A DNA stretch of 64,000 nt from an uncultured Thermoleophilia bacterium (GCA_963728095.1 CAVSIO010000002.1:405338-469337), one strand, 5' to 3'. Positions 54,909 to 60,751 are shown, counted from the stretch's first letter. Notes: generated from the sequence alone by a model not told the origin. Translations and numbers: made by a program.

Positions 54909-55979
54909 TTGGGGGTGAGGACAGTGCCCGAATTCACGCCCTGTCCGGTGTGTGGTGGTTCAGGGGTCGTCGATCCGGCGTCGGGGCAGCTCGACGAGGA
55001 GCAGACGCGGCAGGACTCGGACCAGACCGCGTCCGATCGGGATCAGATCTGGTCCGATCACGATCAGACGGCGAGCGACTCCGACCAGCGCTCTTCCGAT
55101 GCGGATCAGCGGATCGCCGACGCCGAGCTCGCCGCGGGCGGCGATCCGGCCGCGCACGACCGGTCGGCCGCGGCGCGGGCGCGCACGACGCACGACCGCC
55201 TGGACGTGACGGAGCTGCGGGACGAGACCGGGGAGGATCGTGATCGAGGCGCCGAGGCGCGCGACCGCGACGCCGACGCTCGCGACCGTCTCGCCGAGCT
55301 GCACGAGGCGATCGAGCGCGACGCTGGGACCGGCGACCCCGATGATGTCCGTCAACGCGCCGAGCTCGCCCGCGCGCGGGCGGCGACCTACCGCGCCCGG
55401 GCCGCCGAGGACCGGAAGAGAGCGGCGGCCGATCGCGTCAGAGCGGCGGCAGACCGGGCGCTGGCGGTGGCCGAGCGGCAGCAGGCGGCGCTGCAGCAGG
55501 CCGAGGCCAGACGGGCCCTCATGCTCGCCGCGACCGACGATCTGACCGGCGCCTGGACGCGCAAGGTCGGCCTGGACAACGTCGACCGTGAGATCCAGCG
55601 CGCCCGCAGGATGAACGGCACGCTGACCCTCGCCTTCATCGACGTCGACGGCCTCAAGGACGTCAACGACCGCCAGGGCCACGCCGAAGGCGACGATCTG
55701 CTGCGTCGCGTCGTCGCAGCCGTGCGGACGAACGTGCGCCCCTACGACGTGGTCGTCCGGTACGGAGGAGACGAGTTCCTCTGCGCGATGCCCGGCCTCG
55801 CCCTGGCCGCGGCGCAGGAGCGCATGGAGACGATCGCCGCAGCGCTCCGCACCGCCACCCAACGGCACGCGATCACGTTCGGGCTCGCAGAGCTCGGGCC
55901 CGACGACGACCTCGAAGCGCTCGTCGGCCGCGCCGACGCAGTCCTCTTGCAGGCCCGCGACCTCCACCGCGACGGGTAG
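54909..55979 (+). CDS. Diguanylate cyclase (GGDEF) with an N-terminal CxxCxGxG zinc-finger motif, five DxDQxxS heptads and a long charged coiled-coil-like region
   Basis: Start is TTG 54909 or GTG 54915/54924. CPVCGGSG at 54942-54965. Heptads at 55014-55118. GGDEF domain LAFIDVDGLKDVNDRQGHAEGDDLL...VVRYGGDEFLC. Intact. Confidence 0.85.
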   Translation: MGVRTVPEFTPCPVCGGSGVVDPASGQLDEEQTRQDSDQTASDRDQIWSDHDQTASDSDQRSSDADQRIADAELAAGGDPAAHDRSAAARARTTHDRLDVTELRDETGEDRDRGAEARDRDADARDRLAELHEAIERDAGTGDPDDVRQRAELARARAATYRARAAEDRKRAAADRVRAAADRALAVAERQQAALQQAEARRALMLAATDDLTGAWTRKVGLDNVDREIQRARRMNGTLTLAFIDVDGLKDVNDRQGHAEGDDLLRRVVAAVRTNVRPYDVVVRYGGDEFLCAMPGLALAAAQERMETIAAALRTATQRHAITFGLAELGPDDDLEALVGRADAVLLQARDLHRDG

Positions 55980-57092: not shown

Positions 57093-57746
57093 ATGGCCAC
57101 GCACGCCGAGCCCCGTCTCCCCCTCAGCCGCGACCGGATCCTCCAGGCGGCCCTCGAGCTCGCCGACGAGAGCGGGATCGAGGCGCTGACCATGCGCAAG
57201 CTCGGCCAGGAGCTGGGCTTCGAGGCGATGTCGCTCTACAACCACGTCGCCAACAAGGACGACCTGCTCGACGGCATCCTCGACCTCGTCCTCGTCGAGA
57301 GCGAGCCGCCCTCGCCGGCCGAGGACTGGGCCGCCGCCGTCCGCAAGAGCGCGATCTCCGTCCACGACTCCCTGCGCCGTCACGCGTGGGCGTGCACGCT
57401 CCTGATGTCCCGTATCCGCCCCGCGCGCCTGCGCTACATGGACTCGCTGCTCGGGCGGCTGCGCGAGGCGGGCTTCTCCGCCGAGACGACGTACGTCGCC
57501 TACCACGTCCTCGACGCGCACATCTTCGGCTTCTCCCTCTGGGAGATCAGCCACGCCTACACCCCAGTGGAGGCCTCGGACCTGGCGGCGCTGTTCGAGC
57601 GGGTGATCACCGCCGACGAGTACCCGTACCTCCACGAGCACGGCCGGCAGCACCTCGCCGAGGGCCCGCACCGCGAGGCGAGCGCGTTCGAGCTGGGCCT
57701 CGACCTGATCCTCGAGGGGCTCGAGAAGCTCCGCGCCGCGGGCTGA
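57093..57746 (+). CDS. TetR/AcrR family transcriptional regulator, intact
   Basis: HTH: RILQAALELADESGIEALTMRKLGQELGFEAMSLYNHVANKDDLL. TetR_C-like C-terminal domain. Confidence 0.9.
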   Translation: MATHAEPRLPLSRDRILQAALELADESGIEALTMRKLGQELGFEAMSLYNHVANKDDLLDGILDLVLVESEPPSPAEDWAAAVRKSAISVHDSLRRHAWACTLLMSRIRPARLRYMDSLLGRLREAGFSAETTYVAYHVLDAHIFGFSLWEISHAYTPVEASDLAALFERVITADEYPYLHEHGRQHLAEGPHREASAFELGLDLILEGLEKLRAAG

Positions 57747-57899
57747 GCGCGGCCGTGGCGCTCCTCAACAGGCTGTGAAGCGCAGTCGCCAACGACGGAA
57801 CCGCCGGCGCCCTCGCAGTCGACTAACGCGCCAGGCCTTGAACCGAGGCTGCGACCGACTCCGACTCGGGCATAACGACAGCGGAACCGGGAGACGGAG

Positions 57900-58566
57900 A
57901 TGGGACTCTTCACGAAGCCGAAGCCGGAAGATGCGCTCGCGTCCACGACGCTCTCGTTCGCGGCAAACGGCGACGTCCAGGTTGAAGGACGGCGACCCAG
58001 GAATCCTCATCCGAACGCCGGCGCTCTACCTCGACTGGGCGCTGAACAAGGAGCAGCGGCACCGCGCCAAGGAGATGCTCTCTGTGCTCGATCTCGCCTT
58101 CGCAGTGGCGACGCCGGAGGACGCCGAACTCGACCCCGCCCTCGTGACGGATGGCACGCAGCTTCGGGACGTCGAAATGATCGTCGCTGTGACCGAGAAG
58201 CTCCACGTGAATGTCTCCTTCAGGCCGCGCACTGCAATTACCTCCCATCTCTTTCTGACCTTCGGCGTGCTCTGGAGCTTCTGCGTGCGCCAACTCGCAG
58301 CCGACGGAGCCTACGACACGATCGAATCACTGCTCGACGACATGCGCGATCAGCTTGAGCTCCACCAGAAGATTGGCGTCGGCATGCACGCCGGCAAGGC
58401 CTCCCTCCTCGCCTATCAGCACGGTGCCGGCCGGCGGCTGAAGCACGAAATCGCCACAGAGGCAGGGCTTACCGCTGAGGAGTTCGACGCGCTCTCCGAG
58501 GCCGAGCGCGACCGCGTGATGGACGCGCACACTCAGGCGTCGATCAAACGCGCGGGTCTGACCTAG
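57900..58566 (+). CDS. Hypothetical protein (about 222 aa), lower GC, one frame break near 57985
   Basis: ATG at 57900 after GGAGACGGAG. MGLFTKPKPEDALASTTLSFAANGDVQV, then (ORF 57775..58566 frame) KDGDPGILIRTPALYLDWALNKEQRHRAKEML...DRVMDAHTQASIKRAGLT. No family recognised. Confidence 0.5.
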
Positions 58567-58722
58567 CTGAAGCAACCGCCAGATGTCCCGCATCGGCGGT
58601 GTGTGGGTCGGGCAGCTGCGTCTGCCGCCGTCGCGCCTTCTCGAGAAGACGGTGAAGCCAATCTCTCGGCCGCGCCGGCACGACGAGACGAACGGATCGC
58701 GCATGCCCCCAGCTCGTCTCGA

Positions 58723-59304
58723 TCAGTCCATCGGTGGATCGAAGAGGTCGAGGTCGTCTTCGAGCCAGCCCGAGTAGAACCAGACGAGCTTTCGCTGCAG
58801 CTGCTGCGCGCCACGATAAGCGAGCTGCGAGACGCGCTGGCCCTCGAGGAACGCGTGGTGGAGCGTGACCGGCATGTACAGCAGCGCGACGCTCTCCGGC
58901 ATCGAGAACTCGAGCTCGTCGACCTCGAGCGGCGGCAGGTACATGTAGTTGATCAGGTGGTCGAACCGCCGCAGGTCGTCGAGCGCGGTCTCCTTGACGA
59001 CATCTCGCTCGACAAGCTCCGCGACCGGGAGCACCGGCACGAGCGTCCGGACAGGGTGGCCGTAGCCCGCGGTCCCCTGGGCGCCCATCGAGCAGCTCGG
59101 CGTGATCAGCATCGCCGGCCCGAACTCGAGCGGCCCGCTCAGGAAGCGGCGGCCGCCGCTCTGCTCCTCGTCGACGACGAGCTCGTCGGCCGGCAGCGGA
59201 TACGCGCGAGGCATGTCGCGGAACAGGTCGCCCTGGCTGAAGAGCTCGACGCGGTCGCGCTCGTAGTACTCGCTGTCCGAAGGTCGGTCGGGTCTCGGCG
59301 GCAT
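58723..59304 (-). CDS. Hypothetical protein (193 aa), no recognisable family; co-oriented downstream of the excisionase-type HTH gene
   Basis: Uninterrupted ORF. MPPRPDRPSDSEYYERDRVELFSQGDLFRDMPRAY...AMLITPSCSMGAQGTAGYGHPVRTLVPVLPV...DHLINYMYLPPLE. Confidence 0.55.
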   Translation of the reverse strand: MPPRPDRPSDSEYYERDRVELFSQGDLFRDMPRAYPLPADELVVDEEQSGGRRFLSGPLEFGPAMLITPSCSMGAQGTAGYGHPVRTLVPVLPVAELVERDVVKETALDDLRRFDHLINYMYLPPLEVDELEFSMPESVALLYMPVTLHHAFLEGQRVSQLAYRGAQQLQRKLVWFYSGWLEDDLDLFDPPMD

Positions 59305-59348
59305 CGGCGGGCCAGCCTATCGGCGCGCCCGGTCGGCTTTGTCCTCCG

Positions 59349-59612
59349 CTACTCGGTCGCGTCGCCGAAGACGAGTCGGCCGCTGCGCTTGCGGCCGGAG
59401 TTCACGACGGGCCCCTCGGTCGCCGGCGCGAGCTGCTCGAACATCTCCGTGCGGAGCCGCTCGACGTCCTGAACCGAGAAGCGCCGGTAGCCGCTACCCG
59501 GGAGGCGGACGGCACGGAGGATGCCGCGCGCCTCCCAGTTGCGGACCGTGTTCTCGTGCACGCCCAGCGCGCGAGCGGTGTCGCGAACGTTCAGGAGTTC
59601 TCTGGTTGCCAT
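59349..59612 (-). CDS. Excisionase-family / MerR-like helix-turn-helix DNA-binding protein (87 aa)
   Basis: ATG at 59612. MATRELLNVRDTARALGVHENTVRNWEARGILRAVRLPGSGYRRFSVQDVERL. Confidence 0.75.
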   Translation of the reverse strand: MATRELLNVRDTARALGVHENTVRNWEARGILRAVRLPGSGYRRFSVQDVERLRTEMFEQLAPATEGPVVNSGRKRSGRLVFGDATE

Positions 59613-59622
59613 CGCTGATTCG

Positions 59623-59670
59623 ACTATAGCCCATGTTGGCGTCTTTGTCGAGTCTGTGGACTTTGTCCAC
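59623..59670 (-). promoter_or_regulatory. Near-consensus promoter (TCGACA-17 nt-TATAGT) giving an almost leaderless HTH mRNA, with the adjacent palindrome GTGGAC-TTT-GTCCAC
   Basis: On the minus strand, -10 TATAGT is at 59628-59623 and -35 TCGACA is at 59651-59646. The palindrome is at 59656-59670. The -10 ends 10 nt before the ATG. Confidence 0.5.
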
Positions 59671-59926
59671 CCCTCGTTTCGGCAAACCACGGCGACGGCG
59701 GAGACTCGCGAGCGAACGGCTAGCTCGAAAACGTCTGCCCGAGGATGCGGTGTCCGGCGCCGCGCCCGACATGTGCGGGCGCGGCTCGTGCTGCCACGGC
59801 TCTGAGGGCGCGAGCCGGCGCAACCGGCTCGCTTGCCGAGCAAGCGGAAAGCGGAGCGTTTGCGCACGCGCGCCGCAGGCGCGCCTGCGCCAGCGGAGCG
59901 GGCGAAGCGGGCCGAACCGAACGAGC

Positions 59927-59948
59927 GAGCCCGCCTGCCGGCGGGCTC
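59927..59948 (-). terminator. Hairpin 6 nt downstream of the tmRNA 3' end
   Basis: GAGCCCGCC-TGCC-GGCGGGCTC. Confidence 0.5.
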
Positions 59949-59954
59949 GTGAAG

Positions 59955-60315
59955 TGGAGGCGGCGGGAATCGAACCCGCGTCCGCAGCCGCACCGGCTGA
60001 GCGTCTACAAGCATAGGCTGCCCTTTGTCTCACCCGCCGGCCGGAGTGCAGCCGCCCTACCGACGGGCCAGCCATCCTTGAGTGTCGCGCCTCCGACGAT
60101 TGGCTCTTCTTCGGCGCCGAGCCCGCTGGTTAGCGGCCGGCCGGGTCGCGGGCAGCCCCGGCGGGCCGTCGCTGGATCTAAGTTGCCTTAGGCAGCGATT
60201 GCGAGTTCGTTCTGATTCGCATTTGGTGTTTGCCGGTGGATTTACGAGGCCAACCGGCGACCTCGGCTTGCAGCTCATCCGGATGGATCGACCACGTCGA
60301 AACCAGGTCGCCCCC
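59955..60315 (-). ncRNA. ssrA: tmRNA (ssrA), 361 nt
   Basis: 5' end GGGGGCGACCTGGTTTCGACG... 3' end ...CGCGGGTTCGATTCCCGCCGCCTCCA. The acceptor stem has the G3:U70 alanine identity pair. The tag reading frame GCG AAT CAG AAC GAA CTC GCA ATC GCT GCC TAA (60220-60188) gives ANQNELAIAA. Confidence 0.92.
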
Positions 60316-60367
60316 GTATGTCCGTTCGCACACAGTCTAGCGGGCATCCACGGGCCACATCACTAGG

Positions 60368-60751
60368 ATGCGGGCCATGGCGCTCGAGCGGCCGCAGATC
60401 GACAAGCCCGAGGGGGACATCCCGTTCGAGCTCGGCGTCGAGGACATCGTCGCCGGCGACGGGGACGAGGCGACCGCCGGCACGAAGGTGACCGTCCACT
60501 ACGTCGGCGTCGCGTTCCGCTCCGGCGAGGAGTTCGACGCGTCGTGGAACCGCGGGGAGCCGTTCCAGTTCAAGCTCGGCAAGGGCCAGGTGATCCCCGG
60601 CTGGGACGCGGGCGTCCAGGGAATGCGGGTCGGCGGCCGGCGGAAGCTGACGATCCCGTCCGCGATGGGCTACGGCGCGCGCGGCGCCGGCGGCGTGATC
60701 GCGCCGCACGAGCCGCTCGTGTTCGTGGTCGACCTGCTGTCCGTGGACTAG
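60368..60751 (+). CDS. FKBP-type peptidyl-prolyl cis-trans isomerase, intact
   Basis: VTVHYVGVAFRSGEEFDASWNRGEPFQFKLGKGQVIPGWDAGVQGMRVGGRRKLTIPSAMGYG. Alternative ATG at 60377. Confidence 0.9.
   Translation: MRAMALERPQIDKPEGDIPFELGVEDIVAGDGDEATAGTKVTVHYVGVAFRSGEEFDASWNRGEPFQFKLGKGQVIPGWDAGVQGMRVGGRRKLTIPSAMGYGARGAGGVIAPHEPLVFVVDLLSVD

What the first reader, a model, noticed from the sequence alone, without database searches (positions are those of the whole stretch)
57780..59954. Lower-GC segment abutting the 3' end of ssrA: excisionase-type HTH plus two proteins with no recognisable family (candidate undescribed module)
Seen: the 3' end of the tmRNA gene (59955) faces a ~2.2-kb stretch of lower GC; a 120-nt sample at 58141-58260 gives about 58 %. 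It contains three genes. (a) An 87-aa excisionase-family/MerR-like HTH gene (59349-59612) is driven by a near-consensus TCGACA-17-TATAGT promoter. That promoter leaves almost no leader and is preceded by the palindrome GTGGAC-TTT-GTCCAC. (b) 45 nt downstream, in the same orientation, lies an intact 193-aa ORF (58723-59304) with no motif I can assign; notable strings are GDLFRDMP, LITPSCSMG and INYMYLPPLE. (c) A convergent ~222-aa ORF (57900-58566) is also unassignable. Established: ssrA 3' ends are classic integration sites for islands and prophages, and small HTH genes followed by an unknown effector are a recurrent layout of toxin-antitoxin and anti-phage modules. Inference: this is a remnant island with no integrase, and I could find no att repeat by eye. 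Its HTH-plus-unknown pair may be an autonomous regulatory/effector system. This is the least explained coding content in the window.
Basis: partly seen in the sequence, partly recalled or inferred. Interest (0 to 1): 0.7.

Follow-up and report, generated by a model that had tools for sequence, protein, structure and literature searches.

The report
Toxin-antitoxin-like cassette beside ssrA
Next to the tmRNA gene lies the integrase-less remnant of a small mobile island, and its surviving core is a conserved, undescribed two-gene cassette (a small DNA-binding protein plus a protein predicted to have the MazF/CcdB toxin fold) that in related soil bacteria travels with anti-phage defence genes.

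Summary
The tmRNA, the 87-aa MerR/Xis-type HTH gene, its promoter and palindrome, and the intact 193-aa ORF are all where stated. GC is modestly lower (67.7% against 72.4%).

The third "222-aa ORF" is not intact. A frameshift splits 57900-57986 from 57991-58566.

The HTH gene directly precedes the 193-aa gene in about 78 of 80 loci from Gaiellaceae, Thermoleophilaceae, Solirubrobacterales, Eremiobacterota and Dormibacterota. In Gaiellaceae the pair normally sits in 1.7-13 kb islets at ssrA, with the order tmRNA, integrase, HTH_3, 161-aa gene, HTH87, p193, variable cargo. These islets are bounded by perfect 22-26-nt repeats of the tmRNA 3' end. Cargo includes Qat and Abi_C/UvrD. In Solirubrobacterales, CBASS operons lie divergently upstream. 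The window has lost the integrase and attR but keeps the cassette under purifying selection (dN/dS 0.06-0.19).

p193 matches no sequence family. Its AlphaFold model (pLDDT 83.6) matches only MazF/PemK/CcdB toxins. HTH87 has a conserved C-terminal tail, and its promoter carries tandem ACAAAGTC repeats.

Best reading: a new type II toxin-antitoxin or abortive-infection-like module that anchors defence islets. Toxicity is untested.

The parts
59954..60315 (-). ssrA (tmRNA) gene, tag peptide ANQNELAIAA. Its last ~26 nt (59955-59980) form the att core that is duplicated around islets in relatives.
   Evidence: ARAGORN; Rfam RF00023, 159.8 bits; att repeats in relatives.
59697..59953 (-). Spacer between the tmRNA and the cassette. 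It holds a terminator-like hairpin (59926-59949) and a ~200-nt 'post-att flank' (59755-59951). The integrase, HTH_3 and 161-aa genes of full islets are absent here.
   Evidence: No match to L001, where int and p161 sit. 81% identical to the sequence following attR in L085, and similar to L051 and L004. No integrase tblastn hit in the window.
59641..59670 (-). Operator-like region. It holds two direct copies of ACAAAGTC/ACAAAGAC (59659-59666 and 59641-59648, 18 nt apart).
   Evidence: Sequence. The motif gives 113 direct and 0 reverse hits upstream of HTH87 in 84 loci, against 4.4 in shuffles, with spacing of 18 or 9 nt. There are no such clusters near att sites.
59623..59651 (-). Sigma-70-type promoter TCGACA-17-TATAGT, 10 nt upstream of the ATG, giving a near-leaderless transcript.
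   Evidence: 1 found, 0.1 expected. Conserved across Gaiellaceae loci.
59349..59612 (-). HTH87: an 87-aa truncated MerR/Xis/BldC-type winged-helix protein with a conserved C-terminal tail (QLAPAxEGPV...GRLVFGD). Putative antitoxin and autorepressor.
   Evidence: Pfam MerR_1/HTH_17; NCBIfam HTH_BldC 1.7e-7; PADLOC mad1 3e-11; PDB 2jml, Pukovnik Xis 4j2n, BldC 6amk. Length is 84-88 aa and the tail is conserved in all clades. dN/dS 0.06-0.19.
58723..59304 (-). p193: a 193-aa protein of an undescribed family with a predicted MazF/PemK/CcdB-like fold. Putative toxin or effector.
   Evidence: No sequence-family hit. 698 homologues and 188 clusters at 50% identity. AF2 pLDDT 83.6, pTM 0.81. Foldseek top 50 are all MazF/PemK/CcdB, prob 1.0, E down to 1.3e-4; PemK-like in BFVD. 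dN/dS 0.09-0.17.
58723..59696 (-). The conserved cassette as a unit (promoter/operator, HTH87, p193). Homology to relatives always begins about 60-85 nt upstream of HTH87 and ends at the p193 stop codon.
   Evidence: blastn of the window against 90 loci.
57900..58566 (+). Convergent rare accessory gene, frameshifted near 57986-57991. The N-terminal 29 codons are in one frame (57900-57986) and the rest in another (in-frame TTG at 57982, stop at 58566). Function unknown. It occupies the variable cargo side of the cassette.
   Evidence: Only 4 homologues among 5.8 billion proteins. N-termini of P0122 and P0124. Two-frame tblastn. The homologue in L004 lies at the same ssrA locus, and the one in L005 lies next to tRNA-Gln. 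The AF2 model is unusable, pLDDT 42.6.

Best explanation
The segment is a decayed ssrA-associated mobile islet. Its surviving, still-selected core is a two-gene toxin-antitoxin-like (addiction or abortive-infection) cassette.

Proposed mechanism:
- HTH87 is a truncated MerR/Xis/BldC-type winged-helix protein. It is proposed to bind the tandem ACAAAGTC repeats that overlap its own near-leaderless promoter and so repress the operon.
- Through its conserved C-terminal tail it is proposed to neutralise p193.
- p193 has the MazF/CcdB toxin fold. When HTH87 is lost or degraded (island loss, transcription shut-off, phage infection), free p193 would arrest growth.
- This would stabilise the islet and its defence cargo. 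It would also explain why the cassette outlives the integrase in remnants such as this window.

Shown:
- anatomy of the cassette;
- pair conservation across loci;
- att-bounded islets in relatives;
- purifying selection on both genes;
- fold prediction for p193;
- operator-like repeats;
- defence-gene neighbours.

Inferred:
- DNA binding to the repeats;
- toxicity of p193;
- neutralisation by the tail;
- the target of p193 (RNA cleavage or gyrase poisoning is unknown).
For: - Pairing and order: HTH87 lies directly upstream of p193, mostly 38-45 nt apart, in about 78 of 80 loci from five lineages.
- Fold: the AF2 model is confident (pLDDT 83.6, pTM 0.81). Its 50 best PDB matches are exclusively MazF/PemK/YdcE/MoxT/CcdB toxins (prob 1.0, TM 0.6-0.72 on the target). 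The best viral matches are PemK-like.
- Antitoxin-like features: HTH87 has a fixed length and a conserved, clade-covarying C-terminal tail.
- Autoregulation signature: strand-specific tandem ACAAAGTC repeats lie at the promoter in diverged clades (113 hits against 4.4 in shuffles). This fits the direct-repeat binding mode of BldC (PMC5859096).
- Precedent: truncated MerR-like antitoxins are known, paired with PIN toxins (PMC2701414).
- Mobility: att-bounded islets of 1.7-13 kb and tandem arrays. L088 is an ICE-like context with TraG/TrwC. Cassette identity is decoupled from tmRNA identity: L006 is 90% against 75%.
- Persistence: integrase-less loci keep an intact cassette. dN/dS is 0.06-0.19, including window against L011 and L033.
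- Neighbours: Qat, Abi_C/UvrD, CBASS, Bil.
Against: - No sequence-level link to MazF. hhalign probability is 0.5% and there is no Pfam PemK hit. The assignment rests on a predicted structure.
- The MazF catalytic Arg/Thr could not be mapped. A possible G-x-R-R motif lies in a low-confidence loop and is missing in distant members.
- The family's invariant residues (G25, D26, D115, P124, K172) do not correspond to a known toxin active site.
- The gap of about 40 nt between the genes is larger than in many type II systems.
- The HTH is of the excisionase/RDF type and usually lies within a few kb of an integrase.
- The consistent divergent position next to CBASS operons also fits a regulator role.
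- Nothing experimental exists, and a complex prediction could not be run.
Confidence: 0.55

Rival explanations
1. Regulator module for neighbouring immune operons. HTH87 represses an adjacent defence operon from the shared promoter region. p193 is the signal-sensing partner that inactivates it. This would be a fourth class beside CapW, CapH+CapP and CapK+CapS.
For: - In 10 Solirubrobacterales-clade loci a CBASS operon starts 130-220 nt upstream of, and divergent from, HTH87. Nine have patatin/CD-NTase and one has type III.
- PADLOC and Pfam censuses of the nearest neighbours give 7 patatin effectors, 5 or more cyclases, BilA/BilB and E2 among 114 ORFs.
- In Gaiellaceae, Qat or Abi_C/UvrD follow p193 in the same direction.
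- This geometry matches that described for CapH+CapP and CapK+CapS (10.1101/2022.04.27.489752; PMC13373217).
- The operator repeats sit in the shared intergenic region.
Against: - In the window and in minimal islets (L011, 1.7 kb) the cassette stands alone, with no recognisable immune operon, yet it stays intact under purifying selection.
- The nine patatin loci are related to one another, so they may reflect a single association event.
- All characterised proteins with the MazF/CcdB fold are toxins, not sensors.
- Many loci show no known defence gene next to the cassette.
Confidence: 0.2
2. Excision-control genes of the islet. HTH87 is the recombination directionality factor (excisionase) of the ssrA integrase. 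p193 is an accessory factor for excision, replication or transfer.
For: - HTH_17/'excise' family hits and PHROG excisionase families.
- Similarity to mycobacteriophage Pukovnik Xis, 4j2n.
- The cassette usually lies 0.3-4 kb from a tyrosine integrase in islets targeting ssrA or various tRNA genes.
- Xis-type proteins bind tandem direct repeats, as seen here (RdfS/BldC literature).
Against: - The ACAAAGTC repeats cluster only at the cassette's own promoter, not near attL or attR.
- The pair is retained intact and under purifying selection where the integrase is gone.
- The pair accompanies unrelated integrases (25-45% identity) with different targets. It also occurs in loci with no integrase within 10 kb.
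- The partner has a toxin fold.
Confidence: 0.15
3. Ordinary chromosomal genes. The pair is a lineage-specific core regulator and enzyme that merely neighbours ssrA, and the lower GC is incidental.
For: - Very high conservation (85-92% amino-acid identity) across hundreds of Gaiellaceae metagenome contigs.
- Nucleotide identity to L001 (87%) is similar to that of the flanking FKBP gene (88%) and the tmRNA (86%).
- GC3 is close to host values.
Against: - The pair lies inside att-bounded, integrase-bearing islets and tandem arrays.
- It is absent from L004 at the otherwise syntenic locus.
- It is present in other phyla next to tRNA genes, integrases, relaxase and transposases.
- Cassette identity is decoupled from tmRNA and CODH identity.
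Confidence: 0.03

Closest known systems
MazEF/PemIK/CcdAB-type type II toxin-antitoxin systems
   Same: - Two-gene operon with a small DNA-binding protein first and a MazF/CcdB-fold protein second.
- Operator repeats at the promoter.
- The antitoxin-like protein has an N-terminal DNA-binding domain plus a conserved C-terminal tail.
- Carried on mobile elements.
   Different: - There is no detectable sequence similarity to PemK/MazF or CcdB.
- p193 is about 80 residues longer, with a conserved N-terminal extension (RPxDxxYY) and loop insertions.
- Known catalytic residues were not identified.
- The partner is a MerR/Xis-type HTH rather than AbrB, RHH or Phd.
- The spacer of about 40 nt is longer than usual.
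- Toxicity is untested.
MerR-PIN toxin-antitoxin systems (truncated MerR-like antitoxins; Makarova et al. 2009, PMC2701414)
   Same: The antitoxin candidate is a truncated MerR-like HTH lacking the dimerisation helix and effector domain.
   Different: - The partner here has the MazF/CcdB fold, not PIN.
- The extra segment is C-terminal here, whereas it is described as N-terminal in the MerR-PIN family.
BldC and Xis/RDF small winged-helix proteins
   Same: - Size, MerR-like winged helix and sequence similarity.
- Tandem head-to-tail direct repeats as likely binding sites (PMC5859096).
   Different: - HTH87 is obligately paired with p193.
- Its repeats sit at its own promoter rather than at att arms.
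- No developmental or excision role is shown.
tRNA/tmRNA-targeting integrative islets with variable cargo (tycheposon-like elements, defence islets; from my own knowledge of Hackl et al. 2023 and the defence-hotspot literature, e.g. PMC10121019)
   Same: - Tyrosine integrase next to ssrA.
- Short att repeats of the gene's 3' end.
- Tandem arrays.
- Small size and a hypervariable cargo slot with defence genes.
   Different: - The host lineage is uncultured soil Gaiellaceae.
- The backbone includes two TA-like pairs (HTH_3+p161 and HTH87+p193).
- The window copy has neither integrase nor attR.
CapH+CapP, CapW and CapK+CapS regulators of immune operons
   Same: A two-gene (HTH plus partner) unit lies immediately upstream of, and divergent from, CBASS operons in 10 related loci.
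   Different: - The partner is not a metallopeptidase, WYL domain or kinase.
- The cassette also occurs alone, as in this window.
- No regulatory evidence exists.

Membership tests
Type II toxin-antitoxin system (MazEF/CcdAB superfamily) | Bicistronic unit with a small DNA-binding antitoxin gene directly upstream of the toxin gene | tested here: met
   HTH87 lies immediately upstream of p193 on the same strand, mostly 38-45 nt apart, in about 78 of 80 loci. The window has a single promoter upstream of HTH87.
Type II toxin-antitoxin system (MazEF/CcdAB superfamily) | Toxin has the MazF/Kid/CcdB SH3-like barrel fold | tested here: met
   AF2 pLDDT 83.6, pTM 0.81. All 50 best PDB matches are MazF/PemK/CcdB, prob 1.0, TM(target) 0.6-0.72. 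This rests on a predicted model only.
Type II toxin-antitoxin system (MazEF/CcdAB superfamily) | Sequence membership in PemK/MazF (PF02452) or CcdB families | tested here: not met
   No Pfam, NCBIfam or PDB sequence hit for 32 diverse members. hhalign against B. subtilis MazF gives probability 0.5%.
Type II toxin-antitoxin system (MazEF/CcdAB superfamily) | Conserved MazF catalytic Arg and Thr/Ser, or the CcdB gyrase-binding C-terminus | tested here: inconclusive
   A G-x-R-R/K motif (R52) aligns weakly with MazF GGVRP. It lies in a loop with pLDDT below 50 and is absent in distant members. No coordinates were available for a residue-level superposition.
Type II toxin-antitoxin system (MazEF/CcdAB superfamily) | Autoregulatory operator at the promoter | tested here: met
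   Strand-specific tandem ACAAAGTC repeats overlap the -35 region and lie upstream of it, and they are conserved across clades. Binding itself was not tested.
Type II toxin-antitoxin system (MazEF/CcdAB superfamily) | Toxin arrests growth, the antitoxin neutralises it by direct binding, and the antitoxin is labile | not testable with these tools
   This needs expression and rescue, pull-down and stability assays.
ssrA-integrated genomic island | Tyrosine integrase adjacent to the tmRNA 3' end | tested here: not met
   There is no integrase hit in the window. Only 255 nt separate the tmRNA from the cassette. The feature is met in relatives L001, L003, L006, L007, L014 and others.
ssrA-integrated genomic island | Direct repeat of the tmRNA 3' end (attL/attR) bounding the insert | tested here: not met
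   The window has a single copy only. The feature is met with perfect 22-26-nt repeats in about 24 related loci.
ssrA-integrated genomic island | Content homologous to bona fide islands and variable between close relatives | tested here: met
   The cassette block 58723-59696 is 78-90% identical to the same block inside att-bounded islets. L004 has different content at the same locus. GC is 67.7% against 72.4%.
Excisionase / recombination directionality factor | Small HTH_17/MerR-like winged helix | tested here: met
Excisionase / recombination directionality factor | Binding sites in the att arm next to the integrase, and functional dependence on a cognate integrase | tested here: not met
   There are no ACAAAGTC clusters near attL or attR in 27 Gaiellaceae loci. 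The cassette persists without an integrase. Excision activity is not testable here.
MADS defence system (PADLOC mad1) | mad1 HTH accompanied by the other mad genes (methyltransferase, ATPase and others) | tested here: not met
   Only HTH87 hits mad1 (3e-11). p193 and the + ORF have no PADLOC hit. The match reflects the generic HTH.
CapH+CapP-type immune-operon regulator | HTH repressor paired with an ImmA/IrrE-type metallopeptidase upstream of an immune operon | tested here: not met
   The partner has the MazF fold, not a peptidase fold. No immune operon is adjacent in the window. The geometry is met only in 10 related loci.

The most novel reading that the evidence does not exclude
HTH87-p193 is a previously unrecognised, toxin-fold-derived sensor/repressor pair that switches on adjacent immune operons (CBASS, Qat, Abi and unknown single-gene cargo) when cells are infected or damaged. 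It would be a fourth class of defence-operon regulator beside CapW, CapH+CapP and CapK+CapS. It would double as the portable 'driver' of a hypervariable cargo slot in ssrA/tRNA islets of soil Actinomycetota. The unrelated, unannotated genes that follow p193 in each Gaiellaceae islet would then be a rich source of new defence genes.
Probability: 0.2. Interest if true: 0.7.

Novelty: new member of a known kind. Interest (0 to 1): 0.42.

Why it matters
If confirmed, this defines a new MazF/CcdB-fold toxin family with a MerR/Xis-type partner. The family has about 700 known sequences and none is annotated.

It is confined so far to uncultured soil lineages: Gaiellaceae and other Thermoleophilia, with copies binned to Eremiobacterota and Dormibacterota.

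It marks a family of very small ssrA/tRNA-targeting islets that carry CBASS, Qat, Abi and many unknown genes. The cassette is therefore a practical flag for locating defence cargo in poorly studied Actinomycetota.

Its survival after integrase loss gives a clean natural example of an addiction-type module outliving its mobile element.

It does not overturn any concept. Toxin-antitoxin modules on islands and ssrA hotspots are well known.

Tried and rejected
- Sequence family searches for p193 and the + ORF (Pfam, PHROGs, PADLOC, NCBIfam, PDB sequences, and a 32-member per-sequence Pfam scan) gave nothing.
- A search for attR or a second flank copy in the window found none.
- The AF2 model of the + ORF family (4 sequences) reached pLDDT 42.6 and is unusable, so no fold search was run on it.
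- tblastn of p193 against INPHARED phages and PLSDB plasmids, and a scan of IMG/VR, found no relatives. A prophage or plasmid origin is therefore unsupported.
- My GC3-based gene caller mis-calls lower-GC island genes. Cargo ORF calls are approximate. Only families confirmed by Pfam or PADLOC hits, or by the collection's own gene calls, are used in the argument.
- The variable genes after p193 had no Pfam or PADLOC hit.
- dN/dS values near 1 for L003, L013, L015 (p193) and L018 (HTH87) are artefacts of ungapped comparison across indels and were discarded.
- The PADLOC mad1 hit was rejected as a system call because no other MADS gene is present.
- The idea that the + ORF is a conserved chromosomal flank was rejected. 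Only 4 homologues exist, 2 of them disrupted, and one lies next to tRNA-Gln elsewhere.
Full report
**1. Observation**

- ARAGORN and Rfam place ssrA on the minus strand at 59954-60315.
- Downstream of its 3' end lie an 87-aa gene (59349-59612, minus strand) and an intact 193-aa ORF (58723-59304, minus strand) 44 nt further on.
- The 87-aa gene matches MerR_1, HTH_17 and MerR.
- The promoter TCGACA-17-TATAGT (59651..59623) is the only sigma-70-like match in 57600-60400, against 0.1 expected. It ends 10 nt before the ATG.
- The palindrome GTGGAC-AAA-GTCCAC is at 59656-59670.
The dip is real but mild and is centred on the third gene.

The third gene is mis-described.
- The interval 57900-58566 is 667 nt. 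ATG 57900 opens a different frame from the one that ends at 58566.
- Intact homologues begin MGLFTKP.... They align to the window in two frames, 57900-57986 and 57991-58563.
- The gene therefore carries a frameshift.
- The public annotation of what appears to be the source genome calls a 194-aa product from TTG 57982 (P0121, 100% identical).

**2. What the pair is: context**

- p193 has 698 homologues. The best 120 are 85-92% identical and come from soil metagenomes and Gaiellaceae/Thermoleophilia MAGs. None is named.
- An exhaustive HMMER scan finds 188 clusters at 50% identity.
- In 80 genome loci plus metagenome contigs, tblastn mapping shows an HTH87 homologue directly upstream of p193 in essentially every locus that is not cut by a contig end.
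- The lineages are Gaiellaceae, Thermoleophilaceae and Solirubrobacterales, plus MAGs binned as Eremiobacterota/Vulcanimicrobiota and Dormibacterota.
- In Gaiellaceae the canonical order is tmRNA, tyrosine integrase (opposite strand), HTH_3 (about 96 aa), a 161-aa protein, HTH87, p193, then cargo.
- A perfect 22-26-nt copy of the tmRNA 3' end recurs downstream of p193 in about 24 loci. This defines islets of 1.7-13 kb. L010 and L024 hold tandem arrays with three att copies.
- Known cargo includes QatABCD (L001) and Abi_C plus a UvrD-like helicase (L003).
- In many islets the slot right after p193 holds an ORF that differs in every locus and matches nothing.
- In a Solirubrobacterales contig the pair lies between a type III CBASS operon and an integrase, on an element with TraG and TrwC.
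- In nine further loci a patatin/CD-NTase CBASS operon starts 130-220 nt upstream of HTH87 and diverges from it.
- A census of the nearest neighbours in about 40 non-Gaiellaceae loci gave 7 patatin effectors, 5 or more cyclases, BilA/BilB, E2, 6 integrases and several transposases.
- No relative was found in phage, plasmid or IMG/VR collections.

**3. The window copy**

- blastn shows that homology to relatives covers exactly 58723-59696, from about 85 nt upstream of HTH87 to the p193 stop codon, at 78-90% identity.
- Homology also covers the tmRNA, but it does not cover the 255 nt between them, where the integrase and the 161-aa gene sit in L001.
- There is no integrase remnant and no second att copy in the window.
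- Other loci show the same short form, some with integrase fragments (L015) and most still with attR (L011, L013, L018, L033).
- The spacer 59755-59951 resembles the sequence that follows attR in L085 and L051.
- The same spacer also resembles a 280-nt repeat (tmRNA 3' end, hairpin and flank) that brackets an integrase-less Pycsar island in L004.
- The exact route by which the window reached its present state is therefore unresolved.
- L004 shares the tmRNA, the flank and the frameshift-prone + ORF with the window, but it lacks the cassette. The locus is thus a mosaic hotspot.
- Cassette identity is decoupled from chromosomal identity. L006 is 90% against 75% for the tmRNA, and CODH genes are 75-78% where the cassette is 83-85%. 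This indicates horizontal spread and/or stronger constraint.
- For ungapped pairs, dN/dS is 0.09-0.17 for p193 and 0.06-0.19 for HTH87. These pairs include comparisons between integrase-less loci.

**4. What the proteins look like**

- p193 has no hit in Pfam, NCBIfam, PHROGs, PADLOC or PDB sequences, even for 32 diverse members.
- Its family motifs are QGD(I/L)F..VP, ML(I/L)TP(T/S)C, D..NYMYLP, ES.A.LY and R..QL...A..QL.RKL. The invariant residues are G25, D26, D115, P124 and K172.
- An AlphaFold2 model built from a 44-sequence alignment is confident (pLDDT 83.6, pTM 0.81).
- Its 50 best PDB matches are all MazF/PemK/YdcE/MoxT/CcdB toxins (E down to 1.3e-4, probability 1.0, TM 0.6-0.72 normalised to the toxin). 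The best viral matches are PemK-like proteins.
- Profile comparison with MazF is not significant. The link is therefore at fold level only, and the catalytic residues could not be mapped.
- HTH87 is a truncated MerR-type winged helix. Its nearest relatives are a CarA-type domain (2jml), mycobacteriophage Pukovnik Xis and BldC.
- HTH87 has a fixed length of 84-88 aa. Its conserved C-terminal tail (QLAPAxEGPV, a basic patch, then GD) varies by clade.

**5. Operator**

- Upstream of HTH87 the 8-mer ACAAAGTC (one mismatch allowed) occurs 113 times on the coding strand and never on the other strand in 84 loci, against 4.4 in shuffles.
- It occurs as two copies 18 nt apart in Gaiellaceae. In the window these are at 59659-59666 and 59641-59648.
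- It occurs as 2-3 copies 9 nt apart in other clades whose surrounding sequence is unrelated.
- A third clade instead has 10-nt periodic TATAG-type repeats, read by eye from the upstream sequences listed.
Its variants are not compensatory.
- Tandem head-to-tail repeats are the binding mode shown for BldC (PMC5859096) and for Xis-type factors.
- The motif does not cluster near att sites.

**6. Interpretation**

- The best explanation (confidence 0.55) is a type II toxin-antitoxin or abortive-infection-like cassette.
- HTH87 would act as autorepressor and antitoxin, and p193 as a MazF/CcdB-fold toxin.
- The cassette would stabilise small defence islets and outlast their integrase.
- A truncated MerR-like antitoxin class is already known, paired with PIN toxins (PMC2701414).
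- Rival 1 (0.2): a regulator pair for neighbouring immune operons, analogous in geometry to CapH+CapP or CapK+CapS (10.1101/2022.04.27.489752; PMC13373217).
- Rival 2 (0.15): an excisionase plus an accessory factor.
- Rival 3 (0.03): ordinary core genes.
- The stand-alone, selected state of the cassette in the window argues against a purely regulatory role and against a purely excision role.
- Toxicity, binding and target remain untested.

**7. Novelty and score**

- The p193 family is undescribed and restricted to uncultured soil lineages.
- The kind of system (a toxin-antitoxin module on a tRNA/tmRNA islet next to defence genes) is well known.
- I rate it a new member of a known kind, with interest 0.42.
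- The most novel reading not excluded is a new class of defence-operon regulator or cargo driver (probability about 0.2).

Noticed in passing
L057, L060, L061, L070, L071, L074, L075, L077, L092 (patatin start 130-220 nt upstream of HTH87); L088:3448-7503: CBASS operons (patatin CapV plus CD-NTase; in L088 a type III operon with exonuclease, SMODS, HORMA, Trip13 and Cap17) lie immediately upstream of, and divergent from, the HTH87-p187 cassette. This is the same geometry as known CBASS regulators.
   Followed up: partly
L088:8561-8851(-) and about 28 other Solirubrobacterales-clade loci (e.g. L067:10552-10821, L077:10564-10821): A conserved convergent gene of 90-96 aa overlaps the stop codon of the p193 homologue, so this clade may have a three-gene module. 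No homologue is present in the window or in Gaiellaceae loci.
   Followed up: partly
L001:4964-5449; L003:4670-5448; L091:5431-6206: Full Gaiellaceae islets carry a second TA-like pair between the integrase and the cassette: an HTH_3/XRE protein (about 96 aa) followed by a 161-aa protein with no Pfam or PADLOC hit.
   Followed up: partly
L013:2781-3620, L014:10673-11611, L015:10630-11475, L018:10595-11737, L021:10649-11488, L030:10692-11537: The slot directly after p193 and before attR holds an ORF of about 280 aa that is unrelated from locus to locus and has no family hit. This is a hypervariable single-gene cargo position. The gene calls are my own and are approximate.
   Followed up: partly
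L004:3500-3778 and L004:7720-7996: A near-identical 280-nt direct repeat (last 26 nt of the tmRNA, a hairpin and a ~230-nt flank) brackets an integrase-less island carrying Pycsar genes (cyclase plus PycTM). The window has one copy of this flank (59755-59951). ARAGORN did not call the tmRNA in L004, although it aligns at 86%.
   Followed up: partly
L010 (att copies ending 1579, 5509, 12571), L024 (2343, 8319, 15242), L039:9484-10758: There are tandem arrays of ssrA islets with three att copies. L039 has a second, decayed integrase-HTH87-p193 copy after attR.
   Followed up: no
L021:12566-13106: ARAGORN calls a second, oversized (541-nt) 'tmRNA' that spans the attR repeat. It is probably a false call seeded by the duplicated tmRNA 3' end.
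   Followed up: no
L004:2201-2861 and window 57900-58566: The rare + ORF is disrupted by frameshifts at different positions in two of its four known copies. Both copies come from long-read-style MAG assemblies. Either the gene is decaying or these are assembly indels.
   Followed up: partly
window 54909-55979 (+): This 356-aa ORF has a repetitive Asp/Arg/Ala-rich N-terminal half (for example DQTASDRDQIWSDHDQTASDSDQRSSDADQR) followed by a GGDEF-like C-terminal region, judged by eye from the translation. It was not analysed.
   Followed up: no
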